The notes under the pieces were generated by a model. That model saw only the letters and a program-made list of their open reading frames with translations. It was not told where the DNA came from and ran no database searches. Made by a program: the position numbers and the translations under genes. Shown in pieces: positions 6,513 to 43,575 of a DNA stretch of 64,000 bases (within the stretch, counting starts at the first letter, position 1; each line of letters begins with the position of its first letter). The stretch lies in contig JAYWIR010000020.1 in assembly GCA_036172245.1 (NCBI GenBank), forward strand, positions 496,001-560,000, given 5' to 3'. This DNA comes from Raillietiella orientalis (lineage: Eukaryota).

Positions 6513-7119
6513 TTTCACACCCGGGTGCGCCGGGGCGTTTATTTTTTAGTAAAAACAAACAAACAAGTGTAGGGCTATGGCCCCTACAGCGTCCTAAAAA
6601 ATGTTCTTATGAAGAATCTGAACTTGCCGAGTAGCCAGCACGCAGGCTGGCGAGTTCGACTCGGCAGCGGGAGGGAAAAGGACAAATAAAAACAAAAAGA
6701 AAACACTATTCACAAAAGCAGGGAGGGGTTGGGGAAGGGATCACGTTCCGCTGGGGTCGTCCTCTACATCCTTTCCAGGATGCCGGCAAGTTCAGTCCGC
6801 ATACGTCCCAAATGGGACCATCTGGCTGCCGTCCTCAGGAAGCGCAGGGCGGAGCAGATGATGTCCCTGTCGTTCAGTCCACCATTGGCGATGCTCCAGG
6901 CCGCCACAATCCCTCGTAGGCAGCAGAGGGCTGCAAGGGCTGCGGCAGGCCGAAGGGCGTCACGCACAAAGAGGCGCGTCAGAACGTCTCTAGGGTTGAT
7001 CGTGGGTGCTCCTAGGGCCGTTGCGAAACGCAACCACAGGGGCCGGAGGGCAACACAGTCAAGAAGCAGGTGCGGGAGGGTTTCCCGTTCCCCGCACCTG
7101 ACACAATGCTAGCTTCACC
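6513..7119 (-). mobile_element. 5'-truncated L1/Tx1-clade LINE (ORF2 C-terminus + 3' UTR) with 12-bp target-site duplication
   Basis: The minus frame reads HCVRCGERETLPHLLLDC (CCHC knuckle) into ORF 6764-7033 ending RTELAGILERM, homologous to the end of ORF 26464-26805. A pyrimidine-rich 3' UTR follows, with AATAAA at 6543-6538. The direct repeat tgctagcttccg lies at 6501-6512 and 7120-7131. Confidence 0.9.
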
Positions 7120-7399
7120 TGCTAGCTTCCGGGTAACATCGTTGCGCACCCCTTAGGATAACGCCGCTTGAATAAGGATGATCATGATCACACGATGGGA
7201 GACAACTTCCATTCCTGGCGAAGATCTGCCGAGTAGACCCCGGATCACGAGAGCGTATCACCGAGCATCATAGGATGTTCTTATCTCCATTCAGTTATCC
7301 CTTTTCTCTTATCCTTCAAGCTGCTCCCGGAAACACATGGAGGGAGGATTTTGGGATGAGAAGCCACAGCAACTCCTGTATTCAGCCTCGATCCAACAT

Positions 7400-9800
7400 C
7401 TACCGTAAATAAAATGCCAGCACAATGGAAGACGAGAGCCGATGAACAGGAAGCACATGGAATGCTAAAGAAAGGTGAGCAAAGAGAAATGCAGGAGTGA
7501 AGGGCAAGATCAAGAAGGAAGCAAAAACTATTCTTTCTCTCTCCTGATTGTCCTCTGTAGACGCTCCAACGATGCAACCTCGTTCTCTTCCGCTCTTCCT
7601 CTTGCATCCCTTTGGTTCCATCCCTTATTCTCTTCCTCAGAGGAAAACCCATGGCTTCGATCACTCGAGACAAGAAAAATTTTCCAGAAATCATCCGTCC
7701 GCCGGGATATACTGAAGAAGCCAAGGAAAGTTCGAATTGCTGCGTTTCCCTCGGAACACAGCAAGTCGAGTTAGTGCTGTGAGGTGCCTGATTTTCGTGT
7801 TTGATGGAGCAAAGACCCACTCCACATCTACCTCGAGGGAGATGTGCGCACCTCCCTCGAGGCAACTTTGCATCGGCGGACCGAGATGAGTCGGAGACCA
7901 TCACCAGGAAACGCGAAGACAGGGGGAGATGTGAAAGGACCTCTGGAGCAAGCTGGAGCCGCGAGGCAAGGGTCGGGTTTGGTGATGAGTTTCTGCAACT
8001 CGTGGTACGGTGGAATTTCCGGTGGAAGACACCGCAAGAGCTGACTCGGGTGGCAGATACCGGGGGATGGAAGACTATTCTCACCCCTATCTTATTCACG
8101 ATCAGGCTGGAATTCTCAGGGAACTCTTTCAATCGAAGCAGCGCATTGCTCAGGTAACGCCTCAGCGGAAAAGTTGGAAGGCGTGAGTGGAGGAGGTGCA
8201 CGTCAGAAGTGACGCGGGCACAGGGGTCCTCCTCTTCAGGTCTCAGGGCAGACGCAGCCGTGGCAGAAACGAAGAGATTCTTGCGGCGGCACGCTCGGAA
8301 CTTCGAGAAATAAGCGAATATCTTGTTCCCCTTCGTGCTGGGTTGCTCCCGGCCCTCATTCCCTTTCTTCACGGTCCTTCGTATTAGTTCGAGGGGAGGG
8401 CTCGCAGGAAATAGCAGCTACACACAAGAGAATGCGCAGCTGCCATTTCCTGCGAGCCAGTGTCCAGTGCTCACTCCTTGTATGAAAGGCCCATGTACAA
8501 ATCTGTATATGCATTCATCTCGATCGACTGAGATCTTCCCTTGAAGCAAGGAAATTCATCTCGACTCCTCGGGGAGGGTCCCCAGGGAATGCACCTCCTG
8601 AGGAATACTGAAAACCCTCCTGAACGTGCTTCTGGAATGCTCCAGGCTTCAGCAAGAATGGGAACATATCGCTGGGGCACTGCATCCCTGCGACGGTGCC
8701 AGGATCCGCTCGGATGAATATTCACCTCTCCGGTCTTTGCAGTCTCAGTCTCCTCCTGCCGTGTGAGACTGACCTTGATGGTCAAACGGGAACAAAGGTG
8801 GGTATCCGACTAGGAGTTGGGAGCCATTCGTAGTCGCTGGGATCCTTTGCCTCAGTGGAAGGGAGAGGAGATCTGGGATGGAAATATAGGGATCTGAAAA
8901 CTGGTATGTGAAATACATGATGGCGTCAGGAAGATTGGGTTCGGGCTAGCTGGAGACCAGTGGCCTCGTTCCATCTCCTCTTTCTCGACCATCCCCGGAA
9001 AACACCCTCGAAATGAAAGTTCATGGCAGCAGGAATCGCAGCATTTCATAGCCAACAGCTCCTAGGAAAACCCAAGGAGAGTCATCCACTCTCAGTTACA
9101 TGGCAACATGCCGTCCACCTTCAGTAATGCAACGAGTCGGGAGGCAGCCTCATGTCTTGGACGTCCTGGCCCTATGTTCTTGTTCTTAAGCGACTATTTC
9201 GGACTCCATGTGACATTGAAACCGTATCGCCGCTCCATCCTGTCCCTTAGATTTATTTACTTACTGGTTCTCCCTCCACTGCCTCCAGTCTCCCATCCTA
9301 GATCCGTCTCCAGTGAGCCTTGGACCCTTCACTTCAGGTCAGGAGAATGACCCATCGTGCTGCAAAAATTCCATCTGTTTTCTGTAAGCGAATGGTCCAG
9401 CAACCCCGCTGAGTACACGAAAGCAGATGTGCAGCGCATTCCACTGACTCATCGCTACTTGACCGATCTCCGCGCCTGGAATTCCGTGCGACACTTCTGC
9501 TTCAGGGAGTCTGACCTGCCGACCTGCCGGTCCGAACTTCGCAGTGGTCCTCAGAAGAAACAGAGAAAGGATTAAGAGGGTCGTATGGTCTGGGGCAGCT
9601 CACGCGGAGAGCACTCAGCAGCCACTCGGCTTCCGGCGAGTCCAGTTCCACGAGGGACCCTTGCAGCAGGCCTGGGAGGAGGGTTCTCCCTGCTGTGGGG
9701 GGGACGAGGTCCGCGCACAGAATTTGCCTTTTCCCCACTTCCTTCCCCTCCTCTGACGACTGGGAAAGTGCTCAGCGACAAAGTACCCTCCACCCGTGCA
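7400..9800 (+). mobile_element. Possible decayed DIRS-like (tyrosine recombinase) retrotransposon
   Basis: Weak colinear motifs: MLKKG (~7462), LHIYLEG (~7820, YLDD-like), GLVMSFCNS (~7975), and WSSNPAEYTKADV (~9393) and PHFLP (~9735), which resemble the YR domain. Heavily degraded. Confidence 0.3.
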
Positions 9801-11249
9801 GTCAGCAGAGCACGCGACTCCTCCCATCCGCGAGCACAGCGACCGTAGGAGGAGAGGCGCTGCTAGCCGGGGCGCACCCGGAGGCGTGCGGTGAGAGGAT
9901 GAAGTTCTCCTCCTGATCTCTCTCTTCTTCCTCTCCTCTCCTTCCCTTACCCCTCATTTCGGAATCCGCGGAAGGGAGAGGGTCGGGATGCTTGCGTCCA
10001 CCTGTGCATAGGGAGACATGTCGTCGCGAGTCCTCCAATACAAAGCCCCGGAAGTTGAGGGAAACCCCAGAGAGGAAAACGAATGAGGGGGAGAGCAAAG
10101 AACTTTCTCTCTCCGAGGCGACCGATCTCTCTCTCGCTCTCGCGGAGGAGGAATAAATTGCGGGAGCTGCGGGAAGGGAGAAAGCAGACGGAGACGGAAA
10201 GGGAGGAACAGAAGGAGGAAGAAGCAGGGCTGAGTGCGCGTCCGAATCTCCACGGAAATCCATTCTTCCCCAGGCCATGATGGAGATTTCCAACTGTTCC
10301 AGGAGGATTGACGACGCATCAACCTGCCGTGACAGGGGAAGAACTCTGGTCCCAATCCAGTTAAGGCGACGACCCGCCTCCGAGAGGACCGGACGAAGAC
10401 GCTGCGTCCGGCAGTGACGCGAATTGGATTTGTCCCTGACAGCGGACGGAAGCGGACAGAGGGTACGCTGGAAATCTACTTTGGACACGGGAATTCCCGG
10501 GAAGAAAAAGGGTGAGGGGGGAAGAGAAAAAAGAAAGAGACATGGGAAGAAATGAGACGAATGAAGGAGGGGACTTTTGTTTCCCAGGGTGGAAGACGAG
10601 AACCGCGCAACCGTCTCTCCTCCTCCTCCAACCCTTGCCTTTGTTCCTCCCTGCAAGAGAGACGGAGGTGAGGAGAGGCTATCTGGAAAGGAGAGGAGGA
10701 GGCGACAAGGAGGGAGGAAAGGGGCACAAAGGCGGAAAACGGAGAAGAACGAGCAGAAAAAAAAAAAGGAGGAAGAAAAAAAGCGAAGGGAGCGTCCGCC
10801 ACCGTCTCCGGTATGCTTCCAGAGGGAATGCTGCCTCCTCCTCCTCCTCCTCCTCCCTTCCTTTTGCTCCTCCTCCTCTGCCGAAGCAGTAGCAGCAAGG
10901 CACGAAGCTCATCAGCAAATAAGAAGCTGCATTGGAAGGATCCTCTCGGCACGCGAGCAGGAGGAGGGGGGAGGGGGGAGGGCAATGAAGCCAGAGGAAC
11001 GGCGACACGCGATGAGAAAGGCGGTAGTCCCTGAAGCTCCCGCACCGCTGCGTATGGAGGAGCAAGCGCCGCTCGCTGCCGGCGGAGTCGTCTCGGGGAG
11101 CGAGACAAAGGGAGGAACTGGAAACTTCCCCGTTGTCCTTCCTTGCGCTGCCATGTCTCCGTGGTGCTCCGAGAGTGCGGAAGGACGCCGGGAAGAGGAA
11201 GGAGCAGAAGCTGCAGGCGAGGGGACGCAGCTCCCGCGGCTCCAAGTAA

Positions 11250-13250
11250 CGATCTCTTCAAAGAAGAGCAGGAAACGGGTGCTGATCCTCTTTCTGCTGC
11301 TCCCTTTCCCGAAATCAAATGGAAGGGGAGTTGGGGAAGGAGGACAGAAGAAGACCATCGTACGCACCTCCCTCAGACTGGAAACCTTCACGGGAAGGAC
11401 GTGCCAGGGGAGAGCTCTGAACCGTCCGGATGAGGCTTAAGGGCTGCTTAAGAAAGACATGAAGGAGGACGGCGGTGCGCAGGAATGAAAAAATCCTCTC
11501 TTCATCTCTGTGGACCAGGTCAAAGTCTTTTCCTTCTTCAAAGGTCACTCGGAGGAACGAGGGACGGAAAAGTCTGGGGGCATAAGGCTAACTGACACCT
11601 AGCTCCGAGAAAGAGAAGGGAAGAGTGCAGGGGGGCTCCTGAGCAGAGTACCTCCCTTTCTCGCATGCGAAGGAGCTTCCGGATGCGTCCTCTGGTAGCC
11701 GTCCCCCTCCGTTCCAGGATTCCCGAGGGACCCAGGGTTCTGCGCTCCTAGTGGAACTCTCAGTCCATATTTTGAAGGCTGGATGCTTTTAGCAACCCAG
11801 CTGCTGGACCAAAGACTCTAGCCTTGAAGGGGAGGAGCAGAAACATGCGGCCTCCTGAGAAAGACGCGAAACGGCATTCCCGGAGAATCGAACCCAACCC
11901 ATGCCGTCGGCGAAGACTGGAAGAGATGGACAGCAACAGTGTCCGGAATCCAAGAATCGTCGGCCACTCCGTGTCGTCCCTGACCCCTTCCCACGTTGTC
12001 GAGAGTCCTTCCAGCTGGATCTAGGAAGCGAGGATCTACGATGCCCATTCTGAGAGGAAGACGCCTTTCTCTCAAGACCCGAAGGATGGCAACCCTCAAG
12101 TGCCTCAAGTCAGCAGGGTGACCTCAGGAAGTGGATCCTGCCTCAACCGATGGAAGATGTCCTCCCCCTTCGGCCTGCTTCCTGTCGAAGGCCAACCCAC
12201 AGGAACTGAAGGAAGGGAGAGGGAGAGACAAGAAGTCTCTTCTGCTCCCTTAGTTCTCGAGTTTCCTGGAAGCAACCAGAAATCGCTCGAGGGTGCCAAG
12301 GGTGAGATCCGGGATCTAGATGCGAAAGCTAGACTTCCACCCCTCTGTCCCGTTCCGTCTCCCTCCCTCTCCTCCGGGTCCTTCGGTGCTCTTGAAGAAC
12401 AGAGCAGGGAGAGCAGGGGCAAGTTTCCAGTTTCTTTCCTTCCCTCTCTCTCCCTTTCCGAGGCGACCTCTATGACGATGAGAGGAGCTTACCCCTCTCT
12501 ATACAGCGGAATGGGAGACGAGTGGGAGAGGAAGGTAGAAAGGGGAAAGGAAGGAGGAACGAGCGGTTGATGCATTCCTCGCTATGAACTGCGGGGATCT
12601 CCAGCCCTTTCTCTGGAAGAGCGATCTCCCTCCTCCTCGCGCACTTTCACAAGGATTCTTCCTCTGACTCAGGATGCTCTCGTGGCCATGGTCTCCTGAA
12701 CATCAGCTGGGCAGGGGTCAGGTAGGTGGGAGGGGAAAGAAGGAAGTCCAGCCCACGCGAAAAGATGCTGCCAACGATCAGCACGACTTCGCTGAAGGAC
12801 GCTCGAAGGGGATCGTGGTCGTTCTCGCTCCTCCCATAAAAAAGGGTGCAAAGAAAAAAGATTAAGGGGCGATAAAGGGAAGGTGCTGTTGATTCCATCC
12901 TTCCCTCGTGCCCCTCTGGCTATTCTCGAAAGCAAAACTCTAAGAGGACCTCCTACGCGAGTCTTTTGTTTCGCAGGGACCCTCGTCGAACCCAAGTAAT
13001 CATCCTGTTACCTTCCCGCTTCCTTAGGAGAGTCGTTAGAGGTCCAGCGAGATCCCTGCGGGTAGCCTTGCACTCCCGTAGTAGTGCTTCGGCTGCACAC
13101 GTCCTAAAACTGGAACGGTACGATTCGCCTAACCCGTGCTCTTGTGAGAGGAAGAAGGCAGGAACAAAGAGTACGATTTCCAGAGGATCTAACTCTCAAC
13201 GTCCTCAAAGACTCGAGGCAGATTCGTTCGAGTGTCCCATCCGTAAAGGC
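11250..13250 (+). mobile_element. Decayed DIRS-like retrotransposon (RT/RNase H remnants)
   Basis: LFLLLPFPKSNG and SLRLET lie at the end of ORF 10577-11440 (DIRS RT FLVPKxxG / FxMET-like). Further on are RMRPL (~11680, RLHMRPLQ-like), TKDSSLEG (~11810, TDASxxGWG-like) and DAFLS (~12060). Confidence 0.4.
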
Positions 13251-19750: not shown

Positions 19751-21595
19751 CTCGTATGCTCGACTCCTGCTGGCGACTACTTGTAGCCTGCTGGAATGTC
19801 AACCTTGCGCGACGGCTGCAAGGTTCGGGACGCAGCTCCTTGAGACCGTTCGATCTGATGCTCCTGCAAGGGATTCACAAGATCTCTGCGAGAGAAGTCC
19901 AAGAAACTGAACAGATAGCGGGTGGCAAGAAGCATTGGCGTTGCAATGCACCAAGAGGCCCTAACATGCTCGCTGCGTGGACCAGATTCTTCGAAACCCT
20001 GAAGTGTGAATGGTTGGTGAAAGAAGGCACGCGGAGAGTCCACCTGATAGCGGGAGATTTCAATCTCCCCAATGAGCTCAACAACCATTGGCTCGACATC
20101 TCTGGTCCCAGAGTGGCACACCTCGCTGCGAGAGACTTCAACGTCCACTTGCTTGCAGACGAGTACAGCAACCCGAGGGAGCAAACGCTGGCCGTTGAGG
20201 TGTGCGCGTCAGTGCACGCTTCCAACTTGCTGGCCAGCAAGGCTTGGATGAAAGGATTGCCGGACCACATCCTTCTCGATGAGCATCTGCATTGCCGAGC
20301 AGGGAGGAGAGCAAGAGTGCTCTCCGAACATATCAGGTTGGAGTTCGAGCTGCTCCCGCCCAGAAAGGGGTTTCCGATGAACGTTTGGAGAATGCCGGCG
20401 GACTGGCTAAGCCATCCGGAGGGTAGGAGAGATGAAGTAATGGTTTGAGAACATCGAAAGGCGGCGGAGCACCTTTCTCAGTATTTCCGCGGCTTCTCCA
20501 TTCGGAAGTTCGTGGAATGGGACGATCTGAAAAGATCTGTTTGCGAATTCTGCTGCCAGTTTCCTTTGTACCTGCTTCCGCACGGAGTGGCCAACAGCAG
20601 AGCGTTTCTTTGGGACAGAACTTTCTCCAGACGTGCAGGAGTCCGGCGCCTCGCCGAGCACAAGGCAAGAGCCTAGCGCCAGGTCTGGCAGCCTGGGGCG
20701 GCTTGTCTGCTCCACGACCATGACAAGGAAAGTTCGGCCCTCTCCGACGTTTGTCACCCGAATTTTCCGAGGCATTTATTATTGAAATTTTATAAAAAAT
20801 TCCATAATAGAGTCGTTTTTCTACAGTGTCGAGGTAGAACAGTTGGTTCTACCCCGCGCGAAAGACTTGCCAAAACCGATACGTAGACCGGTGAGGTCCT
20901 CTCCAGTGGCGAAGGGGGAGGGAAAACCAAACCAAAAAATAAACAAAGAGTGGAAGAAAGAAGGGAAGGGAATGTTTCTTGGGGAGAGGAGGGCGGGGAA
21001 GAGATCACTATTCGCTATGAGACGTCCTCTGCACCCTGTTCCGGATGCTGACAAGTTCTGCACCGACAGAGAGAGCTTTCTCGGAGCAACTCTTGCTGGT
21101 GGGCGCTTACACAATCAACGAAGAGAAACGCGCACATCTCGACCAGCCCTTCAAGATGGAACAAGTCACTTCCGCCATCGCGGGGCTCAGGAGATGAAAG
21201 GCACCAGGCGAGGACGGACTACTTGTGGAGCTCTTTCAATGCTTCGCGACGGAGCTCGCCCCCCTGGTGCTAAGCCTCTCGTTGCTGATGAGAGAAGCGA
21301 GAGATGTCCCGGATTCTTTCCGCTTAGCGAAGCTGCGTCTTCTGCCGAAAGGTGGAGACTTGCTCCGTCTAAACAAGTGGCGTCCGATCACCCTGGTGAA
21401 CTCGGACCTCAAGTTATTTTTGAAGCTGCGATTTGCGCGGCTGGGAGGAATTGCCGAGTCTTTGGTAAGTCCGGAGCATACATACGCTGTCCTCGGACGG
21501 CTCATGGACGCGAATCTCTTTTTCGCGCGCATCTGGTTGCAGCTGCAGGATTGCGTAGCGCAGCAAAGCTGGGCGGCGGAAAAAGCCGCTGCCAC
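19738..21595 (+). pseudogene. L1/Tx1-clade ORF2 (APE endonuclease + start of RT), disrupted and interrupted
   Basis: APE motifs: ACWNVN, LMLLQ, IAGDFN, DHILLD, LSEH. RT motifs: LDQPF, KAPGEDGL, LLPKGGDL, KWRPITLVNSDLKL, SPEHTYAV. Interrupted at 20752-21066 and truncated near 21595. Confidence 0.9.
20752..21066 (-). mobile_element. Short L1/Tx1 3'-end fragment inserted antisense into ORF2 of another copy
   Basis: The minus strand encodes AELVSIRNRVQRT (compare TELAGILNRLQRT near 26750). The 3' UTR aligns by eye with 26900-27030. AATAAA lies at 20780-20775, followed by the terminal hairpin. Confidence 0.85.
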
Positions 21596-23712
21596 ATGCA
21601 AGCGTAGTGGACGTAGACGGGGAAAGGGAGCTCCAGATGCATCCCATGACGAGAGGCGCCACCGTGTGGGGCTACTTCGCCCAGTTCGGCGAAATAGCGA
21701 CAATCCACGAGATGGGATACCATCAGGACACCTTTGGCAGAGAAGCAATCCTCAAGATCAGGATGCCGAAAGGGGCTCAACTTCCGAGCCTCGTTCGCAT
21801 CGATGAAAACTCGCCACACCTCCGCGTGGCATACTGTCAGCAGCCCGACTTTTGCCACACCTGCATGGTCTTCGGTCACAGGACGGCGGCCTGTCCCGAC
21901 AGGAGGTGCAGGCACTGCTGCAAGACCGGAAACTCCGACTCCGAGTGCGAACGCCCAAAGCGATGCTACTTTTGCAAAGCTGGGGGGCATGAGAGAAAGG
22001 ACTACCAGAAGCACAAAGACTGGCTAGCCTTCCAGGAAGAAAGGAGAAGACAGAAGGAAAACCCTCCCGATACACCGGAGGAGACGTCCACCCCACCTCC
22101 TCCTTCACCGGAGAAGAAAAGACCCGCGGAAGGCAAGAAGCCGACGACGAAAGACAGGAAGACCACGAGCCAAGAAGAGCCCGCGGCTGAGGTAGTCCCC
22201 GCTAACGAGACCCCCGAGAGGGAAAGCGGGCAGCAGACGACCATGAACGAGCTGCAGGCCAAGATCAACGACCTGCGCTCAACGATTGGCGAAGTCGCTA
22301 ATGAAGAGCAAAAAGGGCTGGCATTCCAGCAATGCAAGGATGTGCCGGAAAGCCTGAGGCAACAAGCGATTTCGCCTCAGGTGGCGATGCACTTGGAGGA
22401 GCAAGTGTACGTCAGCCTCACCCCCTGTCCTTCCGGAAGATAACCGGAAACAGGGGGAGGTAATGACACCGGCAAAAACGCCGAACAACGTCGAGGCGAC
22501 CTCAGCCCAAGAAGCGGAAGCCAATGCAGCCAGCAACTGCACCTCGGAAAAGGAGAATCCCGAGGTAGAAGCAGCAGCAGTCCAGGAAAACAGAGAGCAG
22601 ACCAAGAGAGACAGGCGCGTCCAGACAAGGGTGCCAGAGCAACTGTCGAAAATAAAAGTCAAATAGACCATCCCAGCCGTCCTTAAATGATCTAGTACCT
22701 CTCGTCAATGTGGAAGATCGGGTTCGTATCCTGGAATATCAACGGATGCACGCACCCGACGAAGAGAAGATACATGATGTTGCTCCTGCGACAGGAAGAC
22801 ATCACCTGCCTGCAAGAAACCCACTTCATGTCATCGGAAGTATGCGTAGAAACGATCTACAAGTCGATGTTCATATGAACCAGAGCTCGACCTGTCGCAA
22901 AGGTGTGGCCATCCTCGTGAAGAAGATCCTCGCACCGACCCTCCTGGAGGTGTTCCATGGACATGATGGCCGCGTCGTGAGTCTGAGGATGGAGTGGTCC
23001 GGAAGCGTACACCTCTTCGTGGTGAACGTGTACGGACCGCTGTTTAAGATGACTTTTGCAAACTCGCTTGCGCAGCTAATCAAGAACAAGGTCACTGTGA
23101 CGTGGTCGTGATCGCGGGCGACTTCAACGTTCGTCTGGATGGCACTCGCCACAACGAGACGGGAACCCATACCGTTTACCGACACCTGGTGGACGAATTC
23201 GCATTCCTCTGCACGGGGGCGAGCATGATTCGCATCGACCACGTCTTGCACTCGGAAGCTCTTGGTAATCGCATTCAGGGGATCCGAGAGATCAACACTG
23301 GATCTCGGATCATACCCTGTTGAAATGGAGAATGACAGCCAGGAATCCCAGGAAGGAAAACGTGGTACCCGGGCAGCACTCATCTGCACGCCCGAGTGGT
23401 ACGAACGTTTTCCTCCGTACCAGCGCGTCGTGGAAACCATCCTCGCCATGACCAACATCCTGGACGTGGACGACTGTGACATCCTGAAAGACACCATGCA
23501 CGTCTTCTCCAACCTTCAATATGGCGACAAGGATCTCTGCGAGGAAGCGTACAGGGTGATCCACCAACTCCATCGCTCCCACTTGTTGTCGCCCGTCCAT
23601 TATCCCTGCCGGTGAACCCTTCCTCTTGTTTTTTGCTGTCGTCGGTTGGGAACGTGCGTTTCCAACTGGTTCATTTTTCTATAAAATAAACGTCCCGGCG
23701 TGACCGGTTAAC
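21596..23712 (+). mobile_element. L1/Tx1-clade element: ORF1 3' half + APE domain joined to a 3' end (RT missing)
   Basis: ORF 21607-22443 has three knuckles (CHTCMVFGHRTAAC, CRHCCKTGNSDSEC, CYFCKAGGHERKD). APE starts near 22708: VSWNING, CLQETH, GVAILVK, VNVYGP, IAGDFN, RIDHV. The element ends with AATAAA (23685-23690) + hairpin. Confidence 0.9.
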
Positions 23713-25630
23713 AAATTTCAACATCATCCTACTTTGAGGAAGGGCTGGAGGCCAGCTCAACCTGGTTATTGAGCTGTAAGCAGCAATGCACATGTGCAAC
23801 TTGTTGACTGCGGTCATCGGCATGGAAGGCAGCATCGATCACGTCTTCCTAGATGACCACCTGCACTCGTGTGTCGTTTATCGTGGAACGGCGCTAATGG
23901 CGTTGTCGGACCACGACCAAATTGAGCTGGAAGTACTCGGGAGAGGTTCCCACGTGGCGCCTACCAAGGGATTGGCGCCATCTCCTGGAGACTGCGGAGC
24001 AGCTCCGCAACTTCCTGCGAGATGTTCGACCTGATGCTCCTGCAAGTGCAGCAACTCGAAGACTGGGAGGAGATTAAGTGCTCAGCTCGAGAGTTCTGCG
24101 CGAGCTTATCTGTAGACCGTCTCCCCTCCGGGTTTGGTGAAGGAATGCGCAACGAGAGCGTGTATCTCCAAGCTAGGTGTTTGTAGAAAAGGTCCGACGT
24201 TCGTCGTCTGGACGAGATGAAGGCCAGGGCTGAGTGACAAGCCTGGCTGTCTGGGAGGACCAGCTTAATGCACGACCAGGGCCAAATATTGTCGTCCCCA
24301 TCAGAAATATGGCGCATCGTGCGCCAATTTTACTCCTCCCTTTACTCGAGAACACCACGCAGCAGTTAATGCCTGGAGGCGCTACCACGATAAAGGAGGG
24401 TCGCGAGCTATCTTGAGAGAGCCGTTCACAATAAGAGATACCATCTCCGCCATCGGCAAGCTCAAGAAGGGGAAAGCATCAGGGGAGCACGACCTGCCGC
24501 CCGCATTTTACCAGTGTTTCGCAGCCGAGCTGCCCCCACTGGTGCATCGGATATACATGCTGATTCGGGAGACAGTCGAGCTTCCAGCCTCCTTCCGACC
24601 AGCAAGAGTACGTCTCCTTCTAAAGGGAGGAGACCTTCTCAATGTTAGCAACTGGCGTTCACCATGATCAACACGGACGCCAAGCTGCCCGCGAATCTAT
24701 GGACTGAGCGCCTGAGACGGTTGGCGGAAAAGTTTATCAGTCCGGAGCAAACGTACACTGTTCCAGGACGAAGCGTGGAAACGAACCTGTTTCTAGTCAG
24801 CTCCTGGATTCTGTTGCAATGAAGGATTGCACCAGTCGGCCAAAGGAATGACGAATTCGGGGGTGTCCAGGAATCGGTAGACCACCTTGAGTCGGAGGTG
24901 TTGGGAGCCCTTGCAGTCGCAATCGATTTGCAAAATACATTCGATACTGCGTCGACTAGGAGCTTATTTTGGAAGCTCTGGAACGCATGGGATTCCCAAA
25001 TGTACTTCTGGTCTACCTGTGCTCCTGCTGCCGCGCTCAGCGCTATCCACCAAAGTGAAAATGGAGATGAGCTTGCAAGATGGAAAGTATCCTGCGAGAT
25101 GGCGGGAAAGAAGAAGCAGCTGGGATCCTGTACGCTGCGTCAACTGGCCGAAGCTTGTAACCCCGCCATCCTCACCAGAGGGTGGCCCTTGTATGAAAGG
25201 AACATTCCCCTAGAAAAGGCAAACATTCCCTCATTGTTTGTGGACAGTTCCACGCTTTCCCTGGATTGGCAGGACTCGGCACTGTACACGCTTCGGCTGT
25301 ACATATACTAAAAAAGGAGGAAGTCGCCAACATCCTCAAGAGGACGCTGAGGACACCAGGAAGAAATCCGTGATCCCTCCCTTCCCTCCCCTCCAAAATT
25401 TGTAAACTGAACTTCTTTTCTTTTCTTTTTTCGTTTTTGTTTACCGACTCCTCCACTCTTCCTGTGCGGACCTCATCGGGGAGCTGCTCACTAGAAGCAG
25501 CGCCTCCGAGGCATCTCCGTTCGTAGTGGTGATGTGAAGCCACCACTTTTTATATTCATATGAGTGTTTTTTTTGTAAATATTTTTTTTTTTTTTTTTTA
25601 CCATGAACGCCTTGGCGTGACCGGTTGAAA
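23713..25630 (+). mobile_element. L1/Tx1-clade ORF2 fragment (APE end, RT N-half, internal deletion, 3' UTR)
   Basis: Motifs: IDHVFLD...LSDHDQI; EPFTIRD...KKGKASGEHDLP; KGGDLLNVSNWR; SPEQTYTVPGR; AIDLQNTFD (24919-24945). The frame then jumps to C-terminal ...ANILKRTLRTPG. Terminal motif at 25602-25627. Confidence 0.9.
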
Positions 25631-25649
25631 ATAAAGGATCGAGCTTAGA

Positions 25650-26125: not shown

Positions 26126-26129
26126 TCCC

Positions 26130-27035
26130 CCCCTGCCCAAATGCTGTCCTCTGTAACGGACGCAAGGGACAGCGTAATCCCGGCAGGGTGGGAAGTGACT
26201 TGCTACATAGCAGCAAAGTATTGGGGGTGTGGAAAACTCTGGAAGTGACGGGCGCTGCGATGCGAGTGTCCCACGCTGCACGCTGGGGAGAGCTGCTCGG
26301 CGTCCCTCCGGAGGAGGTGTAGTGGCCTCCAGAGTGCTGGAACAGTGGCTTCCTCCCCCTCAAATGGCAAAAGTTGGCACTTCTGGTGATGCATGAAGAG
26401 AATCACGTGCAAAACGCGCCTTCAACTCTAGACACGAGGGAGCGTTGGCGCTCAGTGCGATAGGTGTGGGAAGAAAGAGACCCTCTCGCACTTGCTGTCA
26501 GACTGTGCTGCCCTCCAATCCCTTTGGGATCACCTCCCGAGGATCCTAGGTATCCCAGGGACATTTGGAAACGCCTTTTCGCGCTTGCTGTTCTGCCTCC
26601 AGCCGCGTCCCTCGCAGTCCTCTGCCGCGTCTGCGAAAGCGTGGCAGCCTGGAACGCGGAAAGCGACCGGAATGGCAGAGACGCCATCTACTGGGCTCGG
26701 ATCTACCTGAAGACCACCTCGAGATGGCCTCATCTGGACGTTATACGGACGGAACTTGCCGGCATCCTGAACAGGCTGCAGAGGACGCCCGGCAGTATAC
26801 CGTGATCCCTTTCTCGGTCCTCTCCTCCCCGTATATAAATTTCCCCTCCCCTATTTCGTTTGTTTATTTTTTTTTTTGTTTTTGTTTTCCCTCCCTCACG
26901 CTGTTGAAGAGGACCTCTCCGGTCTGCGCACCGCTCTTAGGCAGGCTTATTGAGCGTGGTAAAACCCTTGGTTCTACCATGCCAATGTTATTTTATTACT
27001 TTATGTAATAAATGCCACGGCATACCCGGGTGATA
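26130..27035 (+). mobile_element. 5'-truncated L1/Tx1-clade LINE (ORF2 C-terminus + 3' UTR)
   Basis: A QCDRCGKKETLSHLLSDC knuckle lies near 26455-26505, and the C-terminus reads RTELAGILNRLQRTPG. AATAAA at 27007-27012 is followed by the hairpin at 27013-27032. Confidence 0.9.
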
Positions 27036-34510: not shown

Positions 34511-34526
34511 ATGTTTTCTGAAACTA
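34511..34526 (-). terminator. Putative snRNA 3' box downstream of U2
   Basis: GTTTCAGAAAACA lies ~10 nt after the U2 3' end on the minus strand and resembles the GTTTN(0-3)AAA 3'-box consensus. Confidence 0.4.
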
Positions 34527-34533
34527 AGGGAAG

Positions 34534-34684: not shown

Positions 34685-37600
34685 TTTTATTCAAAGCTAA
34701 ATCAAATACATAATACAATAAAGATGCCTCTAAACTCTTACTATTCCTTCGCTCTGCCATCATGGAACCGTCTCGTATGGATTCCTTATTGATGATGCTT
34801 TCGTTTCTCAGGGTCTTCTTGATTCAAGTCAGTGTCGTTTTCTGAATGGTACTGATCGATAACATTTTCCTGTAGGTATTGGAGGCATTATCAGATGGAT
34901 GTCCCAGGAAATGCGTCCAATAAATATCATGGCTGCATCGGATACACGGAGAAACCGTGAATTGTCCCATCTTTTCCGCATACAGTCGAGGAACACCTAA
35001 ATCACATAGAATCCGTTGTTTCGTGGATCCCGGATCCTCAAAGCTACAACGATGAATGTATGGATTTCGGTCTGTAAGCCTCTCAAAGACATTTCTTGAG
35101 CATGTCTCAGTATTTATCTTTTTCTTCCTTCTGGCAGTATTAAATGCCTCTTCCTCATTTTCAAATGAGCAGGCAACATCGAGTACCACCACCCGCACCA
35201 ATCTGGTCTCAGGACGAAATCCACGTTAGGGACACATCTCTTGGCTCACACTAGAGTCCTTCCAGCAGTATTGATTGAAAACTTTCTTAAGTTTTTCAAA
35301 TATAGCATCATGTTTCCAGGAGCGAGTGCCTCACGTCATGATTTAGGATGTGAGACAATTCCAGGCAACACAGCGTCGGTATAGCTGGATGTTGGATGGA
35401 GCCCGACTCAGCGTGTTTTTTTTGCTTGATCTGGCTGATTATTAACCGGAGATTGCCAGATTCCTGTTGGGCAGCACGTAAACTGAAAGCAAATTTTCTT
35501 CCCATCAGCGCTTCGAAAACGACTTCTCCAAATCAAACCCTTGTTGTGCCACCACCAAACTCCCAATTTGCTTCTGCACGGAAGGAAACAAGTCTCCCGG
35601 CCGCCCACACACTTTTAATGTCTTCACTGGCACTTGCAAATCTTCAAGTGCAGCCTCCGGACAGGAAACTGCCAAGGTCTCCATCCGAGAGTGCTGTCAA
35701 GGTGTTTTTTCAAATATCACCTCTCGTAAAGTTCCCCCAGCAAACCAGTTTACTGTGCCGTACGGAAAGATCAGCAGCTGGAAAGCAGCAGTCCATGAGG
35801 AAGGTGTCTGCTTCATCCGACAGTTGCATCAAACCCAGGCGGCCCTTTTAACTTCCACCATACAGATGTTTGTTGACTGCCCTGGTGGTGGATCATCTTT
35901 TTCCTTTTTCGCTGAATCTGCTGATCCATTGCCTTCCAGTCAGACTTTGGATGTGCTCCCAACCTCTCGTAGTAAACTAGGACATGGTAGAAGGAGGACT
36001 TAAAGTGTCTTAACTTCTGCCAGGAAAGAAGTTCACAATCAGTGATGGATTCAGCTCTGGCAATAATCCGTTCCTTAGTCGGCGTAGACTGGAAGGTTTC
36101 CATTCCCAAAGGCCTTCCTAAGTATTTGAAGGCCTCAGAGATGGAAATTTTCGGTATCATACCGACCCAAGCTTTTTTTCTTTTTTTTTTATCGACGGCA
36201 GACCTTTTAAAGTTTTTCCACTGTAGAGCAAGCAAGTGCGTCTTGAAAACTTAAAGGTGAGAAGCGAGCACCGAGCTGTCTCCAAACAGGCATAGTCTAT
36301 ACCGTGGTTGTCCCTCCGAGTCAGCGAAGGTAATTATGCCATCGGCAAACGGCAGCAGGAAATCTTCATTGAACTGATCTCTCACTGTTCTGAGCACCTC
36401 ATCAAAGGGGAGAATTTTTCTCTGCCGGAGCCAATAATGCCATTTTTTAGTATCCACTCGCTAAAGCTTCGAGGCAGGTATTTGGTGTATAGCCTGTGGA
36501 CACTGTTACTGATTGTTATGGACCTCCACTTGGGATATTCATGGAGGTTACTGAAGAACATTTTTCAGACCACCCTAAAAGTGTAAGGTCTCTCGGAAAG
36601 GTCCTCTTTTCACCTGCAACACTCGAATCGAGGCCCCCCTCTTGCTAACCAGGAAAAGCAAGCTTCTCGGGTGAACGAGGGACATTCTACAGAGCATTTC
36701 CGCTTGCCAGACGTTTTACCTCGGCGGATCCTAATGGAAGAAGAAGAAAAGGTTAGTAACAGAGGGCCGTCTTGTAAACTTTGGAAAATCCTACTCTGTT
36801 CTTTAACCTTTCTAAGATGAATCCGAAAGAAGAGAGTCTTTGTTTTCTTTCCTGAAACCACTCAAAAGAATCGTGGCCACTCTTTCCATTTCTTTCCTAT
36901 TCTAAAAGAATGGAGACCAAATATAACGAAACGAAGTGATAACAGTGGGTATTCCGGGATCTTGCCTCTTTCAGTGATATATTTCTTCCCAAATTTATAT
37001 ATCTTTCCATGGGAATTTTTTGTTCGCTGCGCAAAGAGGTTGTGACTTTGGAAGTTTCCTTTCAAATCACACGGAGTTTTTTTTTTGGTGATCACAGCAT
37101 TGAAAATTCCACTGAGAAATTCATGACATCGGGAATAATGCCTCGGTCTTTATATTATTCCTGCATCTCAGTAAAAGATTCAGCGAAACTTTCTCAACCG
37201 CGCATTGTGTCCTCATGTCCCAAGGCATGCTAACTGAAAAGTAAAACCATCTTGCCATCCACCAAAAGAATTTCTTATGAGAAAGAAAAGTCCTTTTTTC
37301 AAGAATGATCACTCGTCCACGCAATCCTGCTATATGCAGTTCCATAAAACTTTTCAAATCTCACTCCTCCCGTAGCTTTGTGCGTCCGTTTCCAAAGCAG
37401 CTCTCACTCTTTAATAAACACAGTACCAAGAAAGAGCTACGAACTGCATCTGCAGACTCTTGATGCAACTCCGGAATGTGGTAATCTAACTTGCCGACAG
37501 TGAGTTATTGGATGCATGCGATTCCCTGCTGCGTTTTCAATTGATGGAAACATGAAGCTTTATCTTCTAAGAATCTCTCTTGCATGGAAGGTGGATGGTT

Positions 37601-39965: not shown

Positions 39966-40000
39966 CCTTTTTTGTTAAATAAATGTCCTGGCATGACCTT

Positions 40001-41140
40001 GTCATCCCGAGCAGCCGGATCAGTTATTTAAAATAAATAAATAAAATGGACAGAAAGACATGGGCAGAAAAGGGCCGTCATCCGAACCCAAAGGGAATTC
40101 CCTCTCAGGGAACAGAACTATGAAGGAGAGAAGGGAAAACATTGAATAAGTAAATGAATAAGGAACTGGATGGATCGGCTTCATAGTGTTCCACTTGACT
40201 TCTGAGGGCCTGCATCGGGCAGGTGAAGGGTTGGAAGGAAGGGTGTTCTCACTGGTTTGGGCATAGTCTGTTCACAATCGTTTGAAGGCTCCTTCGTACC
40301 CCACTTACAGAATTGGGCCATTCCATCTCCCTTCGCATGTAGGCGATGGCGACTGCAAAGGCTCCCCAGCATGTCGGCGTACTCTTCCTGCATCTTGGCA
40401 GTTATCGTTGCTCTGAGTGACAAAGTGCCGTCAGCGACTAGACAATCGACAAGCCCGGAGACATCCGTCTAACTAGCTCTTCTGGGGCAGCACCGTAGAA
40501 CCGACGTGCTTCGGCGATTCCAACAGCATTCCAGCTGTATTTGAGAGAATTTTTCACTGTCCCGTTGCAGGGGCATTCCTTGGTCACTCTCCCCGCTGAT
40601 TGTGGTAACATTCCTCATTTTGAGGGAGTGCCAAGTATATCAGCAAGATGACACTCCGCTGGTATCGGAGAGGGGGAACGGAGGCGCAGAATCTCGGAGT
40701 TCTCTGAGGGAATCTTCAGAGATACAATCCTTCAGATACCCTGATCTGGAACTTTTGGAGTGATTTAGTTTTCTAGGTGAGAGGTGTTCCACTGACCAGT
40801 GGCTTGGTGACCCCGGAGATATGGTAGTCACTTCATGAGCTGCAGTAGTATACTCTTTCTCCCGATGCTAACGATGAAACAGTGGACATATGGTGTCCTG
40901 CTGAGATGTGGCCAGTAGAGCTAACATCTCCGAGTATCCCTCCAAAGGGAGTTTCTCCAGATGACTGATGGCGTTGCTGTTCGGGAAAGTTGGACTTTCC
41001 ACCCGCATCTACCAGGGATTCCTTCCGCCAAGCATTCCTGTTCAGTGGGAGAAAGGATGGCCACTCGTGTTCTTCGGTTCAGCGACTCAATCGGGTAAAG
41101 TGGGTGACCCAGAACTCGTCCTAGACAGAGCATGCGTGAT
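40001..41140 (-). mobile_element. Decayed 5'-truncated L1/Tx1-clade 3' fragment
   Basis: A degenerate knuckle KECPCNG...LEC lies at ~40520-40580 and a pyrimidine-rich 3' UTR at 40030-40170. AATAAC + hairpin at 40028-40003. Confidence 0.6.
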
Positions 41141-41143
41141 GTT

Positions 41144-43575
41144 GGAACCCGGTCATGCCAGGACGTTTATTCAGAGAACAAAATTGAAGGGATATGTATA
41201 ACCCCAAAACACAAGAAACGCCCATACAAAAAGTTCAACCCGGAGAAACCACCTGCACGCAGGCCGACTTCAAAAAGAAGGGAACGGCGGAAGGGGACAC
41301 AAACTAAACAAAAAAAACAACGGAAAGTGGGGACAAGGATCTTTAGTATCGTACGTTCCTCTTCTTCTAGAAGAGCCTCTTGACGATGGCGACTTCCCTA
41401 GCGACTTTTCTGGGAAGATGAGGCACCTTGCAGCTGCCTTCATAAGGTTGGCGGCTATCCTGGTGGCGTCCTTTCGCTATGAACTCTCTTCGAGCTTACG
41501 GCGGACCGTCACGATGGCGCGCATGCAACAGATTGTTGCGATCACAGCGCCCTTCTTTAGTCCGTCTCCGCTGAAGAAGCGTCGCAGCGGGTTGATGGAA
41601 GTGTCCTGGGGACTATGAAGTGCTGTAGAAAGTCTTCGCCATGACTCCCGAAAAACACTGCAATCCAGAAGTAGGTGCGGAAGCGATTTCATCGCCCTGC
41701 ACCTGCGACACTTTGGGGAGGCAACTCCCCCGGAAACCCGGTGTCTGCGCGGATTGCACTGGAAACCTCAGTGCAGGAATAGCAGAACATTCTGTTTCCA
41801 TCGAAGCGGGAACGCTGAGGTGTCCACACAGAGAGAAGGGACCACGAGTTCTTCGGGGTTCTTCGGGGGTACACTGAGAAGTTCACTCCACCGGAGTAGT
41901 CCCTTTGCCCGGTGACGAGTGGCAGCCTCCACCAACACGCTTGTTTTGCAGCCTCTCAGCAGTTTTTCGACTCCTGCAATTCTGCAGAACTCCTACCCTG
42001 CCGGTTGGCTACGGTCGTTGTGTGTCCTGAGGGCAGACAGCGCTGCGGCCAGGGATGAGGCGGCTACTCAGGACCAAAGCGACCAGTCTTGCAGGATAAC
42101 TCCAAGCGGTTTGCGTAGGAGACTCTGTAGAGGTCGCAGTTGCTCTTGACGCACATCCAAAGTGGAAGTCCAGCGCTCCAGAGCTTTCCGCCGCCAAGCA
42201 TTCGAGTTCGTGGCGAGGCAGGAGATCCAGGGATGGGCTAACAACAACGAGGACAGAAGCCTCAGAGGGTAGTCAAATCCAGTCCTCCGGAGTAGGTTGC
42301 GCGGCAGCAACGAAAAAAGTCCTGCACTGCCGATGCATCGCTGGAGGATACGTGAGCGCATGCGTAAGGGACTGGCTGCTCATCCTTCGCAGCTTCCTGC
42401 ATTCTTCAGGAGAATGCGCGAAAGAAGACACCAGTCATTGCTGCGCAGCCTCTCCGCCAAGGCCGACCTCCGGAACGATGCTCGCATCTGCATCCGTCCG
42501 CCGGAGATGTTCGATCCAGCGTCTTGGCGAGGGGGACCCGCGTCTTTCAGCCCATCCTTAGAACTGGTGCAGCCTTAGATTCGGGAAAAAGGAGCGGGAC
42601 AAAAATGCTCCATGTTGCTGCCCTCTCGGAAAGCAACGGTTCGCTGTCGCTAAAGGAAGCCAGGAAACTCGACTCCTTCTCCAATCACGCTGGACAGATC
42701 TCCCTTGAAGTGAGAGAAATCAGGAGGATGGCAACAGGAGGATGCAGTCATCTGTATGGCCAGCTCCACCAGGCGCGTTATGGGAGCTGGACCTGTGAAG
42801 GGCCGGAGCGTGCCGGCACGCGCTCAGTGTGTGCTCGGGCGGTCTCTTTGTCTGACTCCTCGTCTGACCCGGATGCCTTCGGTGAGTAGGCCGCTGAAAG
42901 AGATCGAAGTCACTGCTTTGAGCCAGAACATACGAGGTGGCTGAGGATGCTGGCTAGAAGCAGCTAGAGAAGATCCTGACTGGCGGCGCAAGCGAAAACC
43001 ATTTGGGGGTCGACTGCGAGGTCCGGTGTTGCTTTCCCGGGTGGAACCCCTCGTGGACCTCCCGCGTAGCTCGCGCTCTTTTTCAAAGTTGCCGCGTGCC
43101 TTCTTTCTGCAGCTTGAATCAGGCGTAGGCATAGAGCAGGTTTGCATCCAATGTTCGACCTGGGACCGCGTAAGTTCGCTTCGAGCTATGGATTCCGCCA
43201 CCTGCCCTATTCGCAAACTCCACATCCGGAGTGCAACTTGATCTCCATATTCACGGCTGTGATGGGACACCAGTTGGTGCATTCTTCCAGCACAGTTCTC
43301 TCCTTTGGATAGGAGATGGACCTGGTACCTGAAACCTGAAGAACGCAGGTACTTGGCCTGTATCCCTGATCAGCTGTGCTAATGGATGCTCCATGGGTGC
43401 TAGTTCTACCACAAAGAGTTTGTAAAACTCTGAGAGCAGTCCATCGGAGCAGGCTCCAATAGCTTAAGGATCTCGCTGATCGTGAAGGGTTCATCAAGTA
43501 GGCTACCAGCCTCATCCGCCATCCTGCACGTGGTCGATTCGATCAGTTTCGTAGCACCCAGCATGTAAGGATGAA
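41144..43575 (-). mobile_element. 5'-truncated L1/Tx1-clade LINE: RT, CCHC and 3' UTR
   Basis: Motifs: LDEPFTISEI; NWCPITAVNMEIKL; GRTLDANL; GIRVRRGVRQ; GHTDDCILL (YADD-like); KCRRCRAMKSLPHLLLDC. AATAAA at 41171-41166 is followed by the hairpin at 41165-41146. Confidence 0.92.

What the first reader, a model, noticed from the sequence alone, without database searches (positions are those of the whole stretch)
6516..41171. Conserved AATAAA + stem-loop terminus in place of a poly(A) tail, found 8 times at L1/Tx1 3' ends
Seen, in sense orientation: AATAAA-CGCCCCGGCGCACCCGGGTG (6543-6518, -); AATAAA-TGCCTCGGAAAATTCGGGTG (20780-20755, -); AATAAA-CGTCCCGGCGTGACCGGTT (23685-23709, +); CATGAA-CGCCTTGGCGTGACCGGTTG (25602-25627, +); AATAAA-TGCCACGGCATACCCGGGTG (27007-27032, +); AATAAA-TGTCCTGGCATGACC (39978-39998, +, cut short); AATAAC-TGATCCGGCTGCTCGGGATG (40028-40003, -); AATAAA-CGTCCTGGCATGACCGGGTT (41171-41146, -). 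The spacing is fixed. An approximate YYGG-N(4-5)-YCGG stem is kept, often through G-U pairs, while the loop and upstream UTRs vary. The first 10 nt are also semi-palindromic and covary (CGCC..GGCG vs TGCC..GGCA). No copy has more than a few A's afterwards. Established: mammalian L1 RT recognises poly(A), whereas conserved 3' stem-loops typify 'stringent' LINEs such as L2 (UnaL2, ZfL2). Inference: this L1/Tx1 lineage may use a structured 3' RNA signal for RT recognition or 3'-end formation.
Basis: partly seen in the sequence, partly recalled or inferred. Interest (0 to 1): 0.78.

Follow-up and report, generated by a model that had tools for sequence, protein, structure and literature searches.

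The report
Conserved 3' end box of LINEs
Eight decayed copies of an L1-like jumping gene all end in the same 26-base signature (AATAAA plus a 20-base box) followed by a few A-rich bases instead of a long poly(A) tail, which points to an end-specific copying signal of a kind already known in other LINE families.

Summary
All eight sites carry AATAAA (two are degenerate) directly followed by a 20-nt box. A 14-nt core pattern hits 7 times against 0.27 expected. A covariance model finds these eight and nothing else in the window.

The box is an island of conservation: 0.67 mean pairwise identity against 0.22-0.32 in flanking blocks. It sits 539-562 nt downstream of an ORF2 C-terminal CX2CX7HX4C knuckle in three copies. 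In copy s1 it lies inside a significant 12-nt target-site duplication. So it belongs to the element and is not a host target.

After the box come at most about 6 A-rich bases and never an A-run longer than 4.

The proposed stem-loop is not demonstrated. It is only 4-5 bp. Fold energies match shuffled sequence. Covariation is not above controls. The "covarying" CG..CG versus TG..CA pair is what CpG decay produces.

Most likely this is a stringent-type 3' terminal signal of an L1-superfamily LINE lineage. Conserved 3' ends in L1-clade LINEs are already described (PMC3472496), so this is a new member of a known kind. No genome, sequencing runs or related DNA could be obtained for a wider test.

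The parts
6518..6543 (-). s1: AATAAA + 20-nt box
6513..6517 (-). s1 tail TGAAA, between the box and the TSD
6501..6512 (-). s1 3' copy of the 12-nt target-site duplication (CGGAAGCTAGCA)
   Evidence: local-alignment test p=0.004
7120..7131 (-). s1 5' copy of the same 12-nt duplication. The 5'-truncated element body starts about 7105-7119.
7004..7105 (-). s1 ORF2 C-terminal zinc knuckle (CX2CX7HX4C), 562 nt upstream of AATAAA
20755..20780 (-). s2: AATAAA + box, at the edge of a short (about 283-310 nt) 5'-truncated copy nested in element A
23685..23709 (+). s3: AATAAA + box. It follows ORF1(CCHC)-APE-linker of element B. Element C starts at most 50 nt later.
25602..25627 (+). s4: degenerate hexamer CATGAA + box, preceded by a 19-T run. 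Probably a short nested copy.
27007..27032 (+). s5: AATAAA + box
26432..26557 (+). s5 ORF2 C-terminal zinc knuckle, 551 nt upstream of AATAAA
39978..39998 (+). s6: AATAAA + first 15 box bases, cut off by s7
40003..40028 (-). s7: AATAAC + box (loop 1 nt shorter), tail ACAA, abutting s6 tail-to-tail
41146..41171 (-). s8: AATAAA + box
41603..41758 (-). s8 ORF2 C-terminal zinc knuckle, 539 nt upstream of AATAAA
43134..43445 (-). s8 element: weak RT N-terminal matches, collinear with the knuckle and the box
   Evidence: (E 0.17-0.19)
21138..21530 (+). Element A, RT N-terminal part (37% identity to P0001, E 2e-20)
24268..24969 (+). Element C, RT N-terminal part
23048..23320 (+). Element B, APE endonuclease (Pfam Exo_endo_phos, E 2.1e-5, 24.9 bits, cutoff 24.5)
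21559..22440 (+). Element B, ORF1-like frame with three CCHC-type knuckles (two degenerate)
   Evidence: read from the translation. No Pfam hit and no database relative.
20829..20862 (-). s2 3'UTR hairpin, 11 bp, -16.8 kcal/mol
   Evidence: p=0.022 against genomic null
23637..23670 (+). s3 3'UTR hairpin, 12 bp, -15.4 kcal/mol
   Evidence: p=0.05
26952..26985 (+). s5 3'UTR hairpin, -15.4 kcal/mol
   Evidence: p=0.05

Best explanation
The 26-nt signature is the conserved 3'-terminal cis-element of an L1-superfamily (APE + RT + C-terminal CCHC) LINE lineage. Several diverged, now dead subfamilies of this lineage are present here. The layout is: a U-rich tract, AAUAAA, the 20-nt box, then an A-rich tail of at most about 6 nt that ends 25-26 nt after the hexamer. 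That distance is the normal distance of a cleavage/polyadenylation site.

Shown: the box is inside the inserted unit, it is the only conserved block of the 3' UTR, and the copies carry no poly(A).

Inferred: the element's ORF2p (or ORF1p) recognises the box by sequence, possibly helped by a minimal hairpin and by larger variable hairpins upstream. Reverse transcription then starts at a fixed point at or just inside the start of the tail. This would be a 'stringent-type' LINE rather than one that primes anywhere on poly(A).
For: Motif enrichment: 7 hits against 0.27 expected. The covariance model finds only these 8 sites.

Conservation island: 0.67 identity in the box against 0.22-0.32 in ungapped neighbouring 26-nt blocks, and 0.40 in the block just upstream. 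Between copies, upstream similarity is at best about 70% over about 220 nt, and only for s1/s5 and s2/s5.

Element identity: the zinc knuckle is aligned with three L1-like references at 539-562 nt upstream in s1, s5 and s8. RT fragments are 37-42% identical to P0001. P0001 matches human L1 ORF2p at E 2e-81 over residues 3-860.

Terminus: an exact 12-nt TSD begins 5 nt after the s1 box (p=0.004). The s2 box lies at the edge of about 283 extra nt in A relative to its paralog C.

Tail: 26 of 42 bases are A (p=7e-7) and the longest A-run is 4 or less.

Poly(A)-signal context: the 40 nt upstream of the hexamer are 49% T against 26% background.

Structure: the 140-nt 3' ends fold with z = -1.47, -2.84, -1.64, -0.81, -2.46, +1.35, -0.49, -0.13. 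The best upstream hairpins tested against a genomic null give Fisher p=0.011.
Against: There is no functional or RNA data. Only 8 copies from perhaps 4-5 subfamilies are available, all from one 35-kb stretch.

The box hairpin is not supported. z-scores are -0.9 to +0.4. The covariation term is -0.08. Shuffles reach the observed score 61/500 and 45/500 times.

The upstream hairpins cannot be aligned with one another, so their 'compensatory' nature is unproven.

TSD-like flanks are not significant for s2 (p=0.73), s4 (0.27), s3 (0.49) and s8 (0.49).

No SINE sharing the tail was seen: there are no tRNA-like heads and no further box copies.

The motif scan of metagenome contigs returned 8 hits with no LINE homology upstream, so the lineage could not be examined elsewhere.
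Confidence: 0.55

Rival explanations
1. The box serves only 3'-end formation, as the spacer, cleavage-site context or auxiliary element of the element's own poly(A) signal. The RT has no sequence-specific contact with it. Short tails then reflect short or trimmed A tails on the RNA, or priming at the base of the tail for other reasons.
For: The geometry fits: a U-rich tract (49% T), AAUAAA, and an end 25-26 nt downstream at an A-rich, often CA-containing site. No structural signal is needed, which agrees with the weak hairpin statistics.
Against: As far as I recall, ordinary poly(A) sites do not need a conserved 20-nt sequence between the hexamer and the cleavage site. This model does not explain why the copies lack poly(A), since a relaxed RT priming on poly(A) should leave long A-rich tails. 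None is seen, and in s1 the TSD starts 5 nt after the box.
Confidence: 0.2
2. The box is conserved at the DNA level because it is a preferred entry site or microhomology for new insertions of the same elements. The CCGG and CCCGGG/ACCGGT palindromes would act as endonuclease or annealing sites, producing the nested, head-to-tail and tail-to-tail clusters seen here.
For: s7 cut the s6 box at GACC^GGG. The s1 target strand contains CCGGGT at the nick (my reading). Element C starts at most 50 nt after s3. The E7 5' end lies within 83 nt of the s8 end. Tandem insertion is reported for Tx1-mobilised SINEU in crocodilians (PMC4494074, Results).
Against: Selection acts on active masters, not on dead copies used as targets, so this cannot by itself maintain the box. 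The s2 and s4 target sites show no such palindrome. Only 2 of 4 readable nick sites fit. The adjacency can also be explained by ordinary nesting in a TE-rich patch.
Confidence: 0.1
3. There is no function. The shared end reflects common descent or exchange of 3' ends between subfamilies by recombination or template switching, with too few copies to tell.
For: Only 4-5 independent subfamilies are present. s3/s4, s6/s8 and s1/s2/s5 share box variants. Discordant 5' and 3' trees are shown for fish L1/Tx1 families (PMC3381678, figure legend seen).
Against: The conservation drops to chance level immediately on both sides of the 26 nt. That pattern is hard to obtain by descent or exchange without constraint.
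Confidence: 0.1
4. The box is host target sequence next to site-specific (Tx1-like) insertions, or a chance motif.
For: Tx1-group elements are often target-specific (PMC4494074 introduction). A short flank motif, ATCATCC, recurs after 3 of the 8 boxes.
Against: The s1 TSD lies outside box plus tail. Sequences beyond the tails are unrelated. Chance is excluded.
Confidence: 0.03

Closest known systems
Stringent-type L1-clade LINEs: monocot group around LINE1-1_ZM and Chlamydomonas L1-1_CR (Ohshima 2012, PMC3472496, text read)
   Same: They are L1-clade elements whose last few tens of nucleotides are far better conserved than the rest (0.144 against 0.570 divergence there; 0.67 against about 0.27 identity here). 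A 3' hairpin is proposed as the RT recognition signal.
   Different: Those families end in poly(A) and share their tails with SINEs, and compensatory changes were reported in the stem. Here there is no poly(A), no SINE partner in the window, the island is only 26 nt, and the hairpin is unsupported.
L2-clade stringent LINEs UnaL2 / ZfL2 (named as in PMC3472496 and PMC4176376; details recalled)
   Same: They have a conserved 3' terminal stem-loop plus a short non-poly(A) tail, and 5'-truncated copies.
   Different: They belong to a different clade. Their tail is a repeated unit such as (TGTAA)n. Their stem-loop has been shown by experiment to be required, and nothing of that kind is available here.
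Green-algal L1-clade families without (A)n (Table 1 of PMC3472496: of 15 families, 8 have other repeats and 5 have none)
   Same: They are L1-clade LINEs that do not end in poly(A).
   Different: Their tails are microsatellite-like, such as (CA)n, (CAA)n and (CATA)n. Here a unique 20-nt box is followed by at most about 6 A/C-rich bases.
Tx1 group (Tx1, Keno, Kibi, Koshi, Tx1-Mar; PMC4494074)
   Same: They are L1-related, insert in nested or tandem fashion into other repeats, and have 5'-truncated copies. My recollection that they have a CCHC-type ORF1 is not tested here.
   Different: They are defined by target-specific insertion, and the flanks here differ. SINEU elements mobilised by Tx1-Mar have poly(A) tails. 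RT phylogeny was not done here.
Mammalian L1
   Same: It has the APE-RT-CCHC ORF2 architecture (PDB match of the reference relative) and an AATAAA near the 3' end.
   Different: Mammalian L1 ends in long poly(A) and is regarded as relaxed. A 3' UTR stem-loop has been proposed for it only computationally (PMC5135761, abstract).

Membership tests
Non-LTR retrotransposon (LINE) | APE endonuclease and reverse transcriptase coding remnants in the order APE-RT-C-terminal domain | tested here: met
   Exo_endo_phos at 23048-23320. RT N-terminal parts at 21138-21530 and 24268-24969. Collinear APE then RT in elements A and C. RT then knuckle then box in the s8 element. No Pfam RVT_1 hit in any of the 343 window ORFs of 75 aa or more, so the copies are badly decayed.
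Non-LTR retrotransposon (LINE) | 5'-truncated copies flanked by target-site duplications | tested here: met
   s1 is about 600 nt long with an exact 12-nt TSD (p=0.004). For s2, s3, s4 and s8 no significant TSD was found. For s5 the best match (p=0.022) is low-complexity.
L1 superclade (L1/Tx1) | ORF2 with an N-terminal APE, an RT, and a C-terminal CX2-3CX7HX4C cysteine-rich motif (Pfam zf-RVT in relatives) | tested here: met
   The knuckle aligns with P0001-P0003, with C, C, H, C and W invariant. The references carry RVT_1 + Exo_endo_phos + zf-RVT. P0001 matches human L1 ORF2p at E 2e-81. Pfam zf-RVT itself did not score on the window fragments.
L1 superclade (L1/Tx1) | Placement by RT phylogeny among named clade references | not tested
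The window RT fragments are about 130 aa and decayed.
Tx1 group | Target-sequence-specific insertion (same flanking sequence at independent copies) | tested here: inconclusive
   Flanks beyond the tails are unrelated, and the four readable nick sites differ. Against that, ATCATCC recurs within 25 nt after 3 of the 8 boxes. The window holds only 14 matches, so about 0.02 would be expected by my arithmetic.
Stringent-type LINE | 3' terminal sequence conserved among diverged family members | tested here: met
   0.67 against 0.22-0.32 mean pairwise identity; alignment A1.
Stringent-type LINE | 3' UTR or tail required for retrotransposition; RT binds it | not testable with these tools
   This needs an assay with a naturally intact element.
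Stringent-type LINE | Partner SINE sharing the 3' tail | tested here: not met
   In this window there are no box copies other than the 8 LINE ends and no tRNA-like heads. The U2-like sequence at 34530-34700 has no box nearby. A 64-kb window is a weak test.
Structured RNA element (3' stem-loop) | Base pairs supported by covariation and by stability above background | tested here: inconclusive
   89% of cells are paired, but there is 1 double-sided change and 61/500 shuffles do as well. The alternative 3-bp helix gives 45/500. The alifold covariation term is -0.08. Fold z-scores are -0.9 to +0.4.

The most novel reading that the evidence does not exclude
An L1-superfamily lineage, of unknown host and possibly outside green plants, has placed a dedicated 20-nt RT-entry box between its own AAUAAA and the RNA 3' end. 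cDNA synthesis would then start at a fixed nucleotide and poly(A) would not be copied. On this reading the lineage also tends to insert at or next to the palindromic box of older copies, building self-nested arrays. That would be a stringent and partly self-targeting L1. It would bear on whether stringent 3' recognition is ancestral for the whole L1 clade.
Probability: 0.3. Interest if true: 0.55.

Novelty: new member of a known kind. Interest (0 to 1): 0.36.

Why it matters
How LINE reverse transcriptases choose their template is the basis of cis-preference and of SINE and pseudogene mobilisation. L1 is the textbook 'relaxed, poly(A)-recognising' case. Ohshima (PMC3472496) proposed that stringent recognition is ancestral in the L1 clade, on the evidence of plant and green-algal lineages. 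A further L1-like lineage with a sharply conserved terminal box and no poly(A) would add a data point to that question. It would also give annotators a practical 26-nt marker for the true 3' ends of these otherwise almost unrecognisable copies. As it stands this is an annotation-level result, not a mechanistic one.

Tried and rejected
Whole genome: none is held.

Sequencing runs for window 26001-36000: none was listed and no RNA holder was listed.

Earlier scan findings: nothing was found by place, by sequence or by words.

Motif scans with AATAAAYGYCNYGGCRYRMCCGG. Viral contigs gave 0 hits. Metagenome contigs gave 8 hits, with GC of 41-64%, no tblastn match to the L1-like references at E<=0.01, and no similarity around the motif. 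I judge these to be chance matches in unrelated DNA. My rough expectation for that collection was about 15.

Pfam on all 343 stop-to-stop ORFs of 75 aa or more (23 of them also): one family at or above its curated cutoff (Exo_endo_phos). No RVT_1 and no host-gene domain were found.

Protein searches. The APE frame against 1.84 billion representatives gave 1 hit at E 6e-6. The ORF1-like frame gave no hit. The ESM Atlas look-up of the RT fragment returned only unnamed eukaryotic clusters. The host taxon was not determined.

A very permissive tblastn was too noisy to prove that C (23718-25310) and D (25640-27038) are one element split by the s4 copy. That reading rests on motif order and remains an inference.

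TSD searches for s2, s3, s4 and s8 were not significant. My hand-aligned s2 and s4 'TSDs' should be regarded as unproven.

Rfam: no family matches the box. The only hit in the window is a U2-like sequence.

Literature. Four full-text searches found no description of this box or of an L1/Tx1 family with AATAAA plus a fixed 20-nt terminus. Repbase and Dfam consensus libraries are not searchable here, so the family may already be catalogued. 'Tx1' in PMC4176376 turned out to be a mutant-protein label and is irrelevant. The supplementary figures of PMC3472496 (3' end alignments) and of PMC4494074 were not opened.
Full report
**1. Observation**

All eight sites read as reported.
- Six have AATAAA. 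s7 has AATAAC and s4 has CATGAA.
- In every copy the hexamer is followed directly by a 20-nt box of the form YGNYNYGG-N5-YCGGKWK. Only s7 has one loop base fewer (alignment A1).
- s6 stops after 15 box bases, where the oppositely oriented s7 begins 4 nt away.
- The 14-nt core pattern with up to 1 mismatch occurs 7 times against 0.27 expected, and 0 of 100 shuffles reach 7. The seventh hit (34919) is not a box.
- A covariance model built from A1 and run with filters off at E<=10 finds the eight sites and nothing else in 64 kb.

**2. What the box is attached to**

The copies are badly decayed.
- Of 343 stop-to-stop ORFs of 75 aa or more, only one reaches a Pfam curated cutoff: Exo_endo_phos at 23048-23320.
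- A word-indexed search with an RT-like frame found three full-length relatives, P0001-P0003. They carry APE + RVT_1 + zf-RVT and are 32-42% identical.
- P0001 matches human L1 ORF2p at E 2e-81 over residues 3-860.

Using these relatives as probes gave the following.
- RT N-terminal parts lie at 21138-21530 and 24268-24969.
- The ORF2 C-terminal CX2CX7HX4C knuckle lies at 7004-7105(-), 26432-26557(+) and 41603-41758(-). The C, C, H, C and W positions are invariant against the references.
- These knuckles sit 562, 551 and 539 nt upstream of the hexamers of s1, s5 and s8. The s8 element also has weak RT matches further upstream at the right spacing.
- s2 and s4 share nucleotide similarity with the s5 3' region.
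- s7 has a degenerate knuckle-like string 464 nt upstream and one weak match to the s8 element.
- For s3 (which follows an ORF1-APE-linker unit) and for s6, I could not show LINE C-terminal homology.

**3. Is the box part of the element?**

- For s1 an exact 12-nt duplication (CGGAAGCTAGCA) begins 5 nt after the box and recurs 588 nt upstream, next to the truncated ORF2. A local-alignment test against shuffled flanks gives p=0.004.
- For s2, the protein-level collinearity of element A with its paralog C is interrupted by about 283 extra nt, and the box plus at most 6 nt forms the left edge of that insert.
- So the box plus a very short tail is the 3' terminus of the inserted unit, not host target sequence.
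- For s2, s3, s4 and s8 no significant TSD was found. For s5 the only match is low-complexity (p=0.022).

**4. Conservation and tail**

- Mean pairwise identity is 0.67 in the 26 nt. It is 0.40 in the AT-rich block just upstream and 0.22-0.32 in all other ungapped 26-nt blocks on either side.
- Upstream similarity between copies is at best about 70% over about 220 nt, and only for two pairs.
- The six bases after the box are 62% A (26 of 42, p=7e-7). The longest A-run in the next 30 nt is 1-4.
- The 40 nt before the hexamer are 49% T against 26% background.
- The layout is therefore U-rich tract, AAUAAA, box, short A-rich end. The end lies 25-26 nt after the hexamer, which is a normal cleavage distance (established knowledge, recalled).

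**5. The stem-loop**

Two mutually exclusive mini-hairpins are possible.
- One pairs CCGG with YCGG: 4-5 bp with a 5-nt loop.
- The other pairs the first 10 nt: 3 bp once a legal loop is allowed.

Their support is weak.
- The 46-nt segments fold no better than shuffles, with z from -0.9 to +0.4.
- The first helix is 89% paired, but it has one double-sided change and 61 of 500 partner shuffles do as well.
- The second helix scores 45 of 500.
- RNAalifold on seven 150-nt ends keeps only the first helix, at -4.52 kcal/mol with a covariation term of -0.08.
The 'G-U pairs' are C-to-T changes in CCGG. Window CpG o/e is 0.81.
- So the structure is permitted but not shown.

Larger hairpins (7-12 bp) with unrelated sequences lie 14-53 nt upstream of the hexamer in several copies. 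Measured against 600 random genomic segments their p-values are 0.20, 0.022, 0.05, 0.54, 0.05, 0.70, 0.11 and 0.31, giving Fisher p=0.011. They are closer to the 8-10 bp stem described for stringent LINEs (PMC5135761, abstract). However, they cannot be aligned with one another, so compensatory change is not proven.

**6. Mechanism**

The most likely reading (0.55) is a stringent-type terminal signal. The element's proteins recognise the box, and reverse transcription starts at a fixed point at or just inside the tail, so poly(A) is not copied.

The rivals are these.
- A pure 3'-end-formation element (0.2).
- A DNA-level palindromic entry site that favours self-nesting (0.1).
- Descent or exchange without function (0.1).
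- Host target or chance (0.03, contradicted by the s1 TSD and).

**7. Comparison with what is known**

- Ohshima 2012 (PMC3472496, read; review PMC3747384, passages) described L1-clade lineages in monocots and Chlamydomonas with conserved 3' ends, hairpins and SINE partners. The paper also lists green-algal L1 families without (A)n.
- The present case shares the principle. It differs in lacking poly(A), in the short 26-nt island, and in having no SINE partner in view.
- Membership in the Tx1 group proper is open. Target specificity is not evident, although ATCATCC recurs after 3 of the 8 boxes.
- Kojima 2015 (PMC4494074) shows tandem and nested insertion for Tx1-related elements. That resembles the clustering seen here.

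**8. Limits**

No genome, sequencing runs, related DNA or earlier notes were available. Everything rests on eight old copies within 35 kb. Repbase and Dfam could not be consulted.

**9. Verdict**

This is a real, element-borne conserved 3' terminus of an L1-like LINE lineage without poly(A). The RNA stem-loop and the RT-recognition role are plausible but unproven. It is a new member of a known kind and of moderate interest.

Noticed in passing
window 6495-6501(-), 23723-23729(+), 27035-27041(+): The 7-mer ATCATCC lies on the sense strand within 25 nt after the box in 3 of 8 copies. s8 has CATCAC and the s6/s7 junction has CATCC. The window holds only 14 matches on both strands, so about 0.02 would be expected. 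This may be a target-site preference. The flanks are otherwise unrelated.
   Followed up: partly
window 18600-27040 and 39970-43450: LINE fragments are packed end to end. Elements A, B, C and D lie head-to-tail on the + strand, with short copies (s2, s4) nested inside. Element C begins at most 50 nt after the s3 end. The s7 element's 5' end lies within 83 nt of the s8 end. s6 and s7 meet tail-to-tail 4 nt apart, with s7 cutting the s6 box at GACC^GGG. The cause could be nesting, tail-targeted insertion or template jumping. This is unresolved.
   Followed up: partly
window 34530-34700 (-): A U2 snRNA-like sequence (Rfam RF00004, 57.9 bits, gathering score 46) lacks about 22 nt near the 5' end, including the branch-point-binding stretch. 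It is probably a pseudogene or a retroposed copy. No box is nearby.
   Followed up: partly
window 21559-22440 (+) and 18662-18958 (+): ORF1-like frames with CCHC knuckles lie upstream of the APE domains of elements B and A. The 294-aa frame has no relative in the 5.8-billion-protein index and no Pfam hit. The shorter frame has a sub-threshold zf-CCHC match at E 0.019.
   Followed up: partly
window 9800-11440: A GC-rich, low-complexity purine/pyrimidine-biased stretch is open for 170-370 codons in several frames on both strands. It holds one 25-nt tandem repeat at 10170-10217. No domain hits were found.
   Followed up: no
window 25582-25600 (+): A run of 19 T lies directly upstream of the degenerate hexamer of s4. 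It looks like an expansion of the T-rich tract that precedes the hexamer in every copy.
   Followed up: no
window 6634-6651(-), about 41255-41268(-), about 26920-26935(+), about 20868-20885(-): A second, weaker shared block (CTGCGTGC-like, inside a short hairpin) lies about 85-100 nt upstream of the hexamer in s1, s8, s5 and s2. I read it by eye and did not test it statistically.
   Followed up: no
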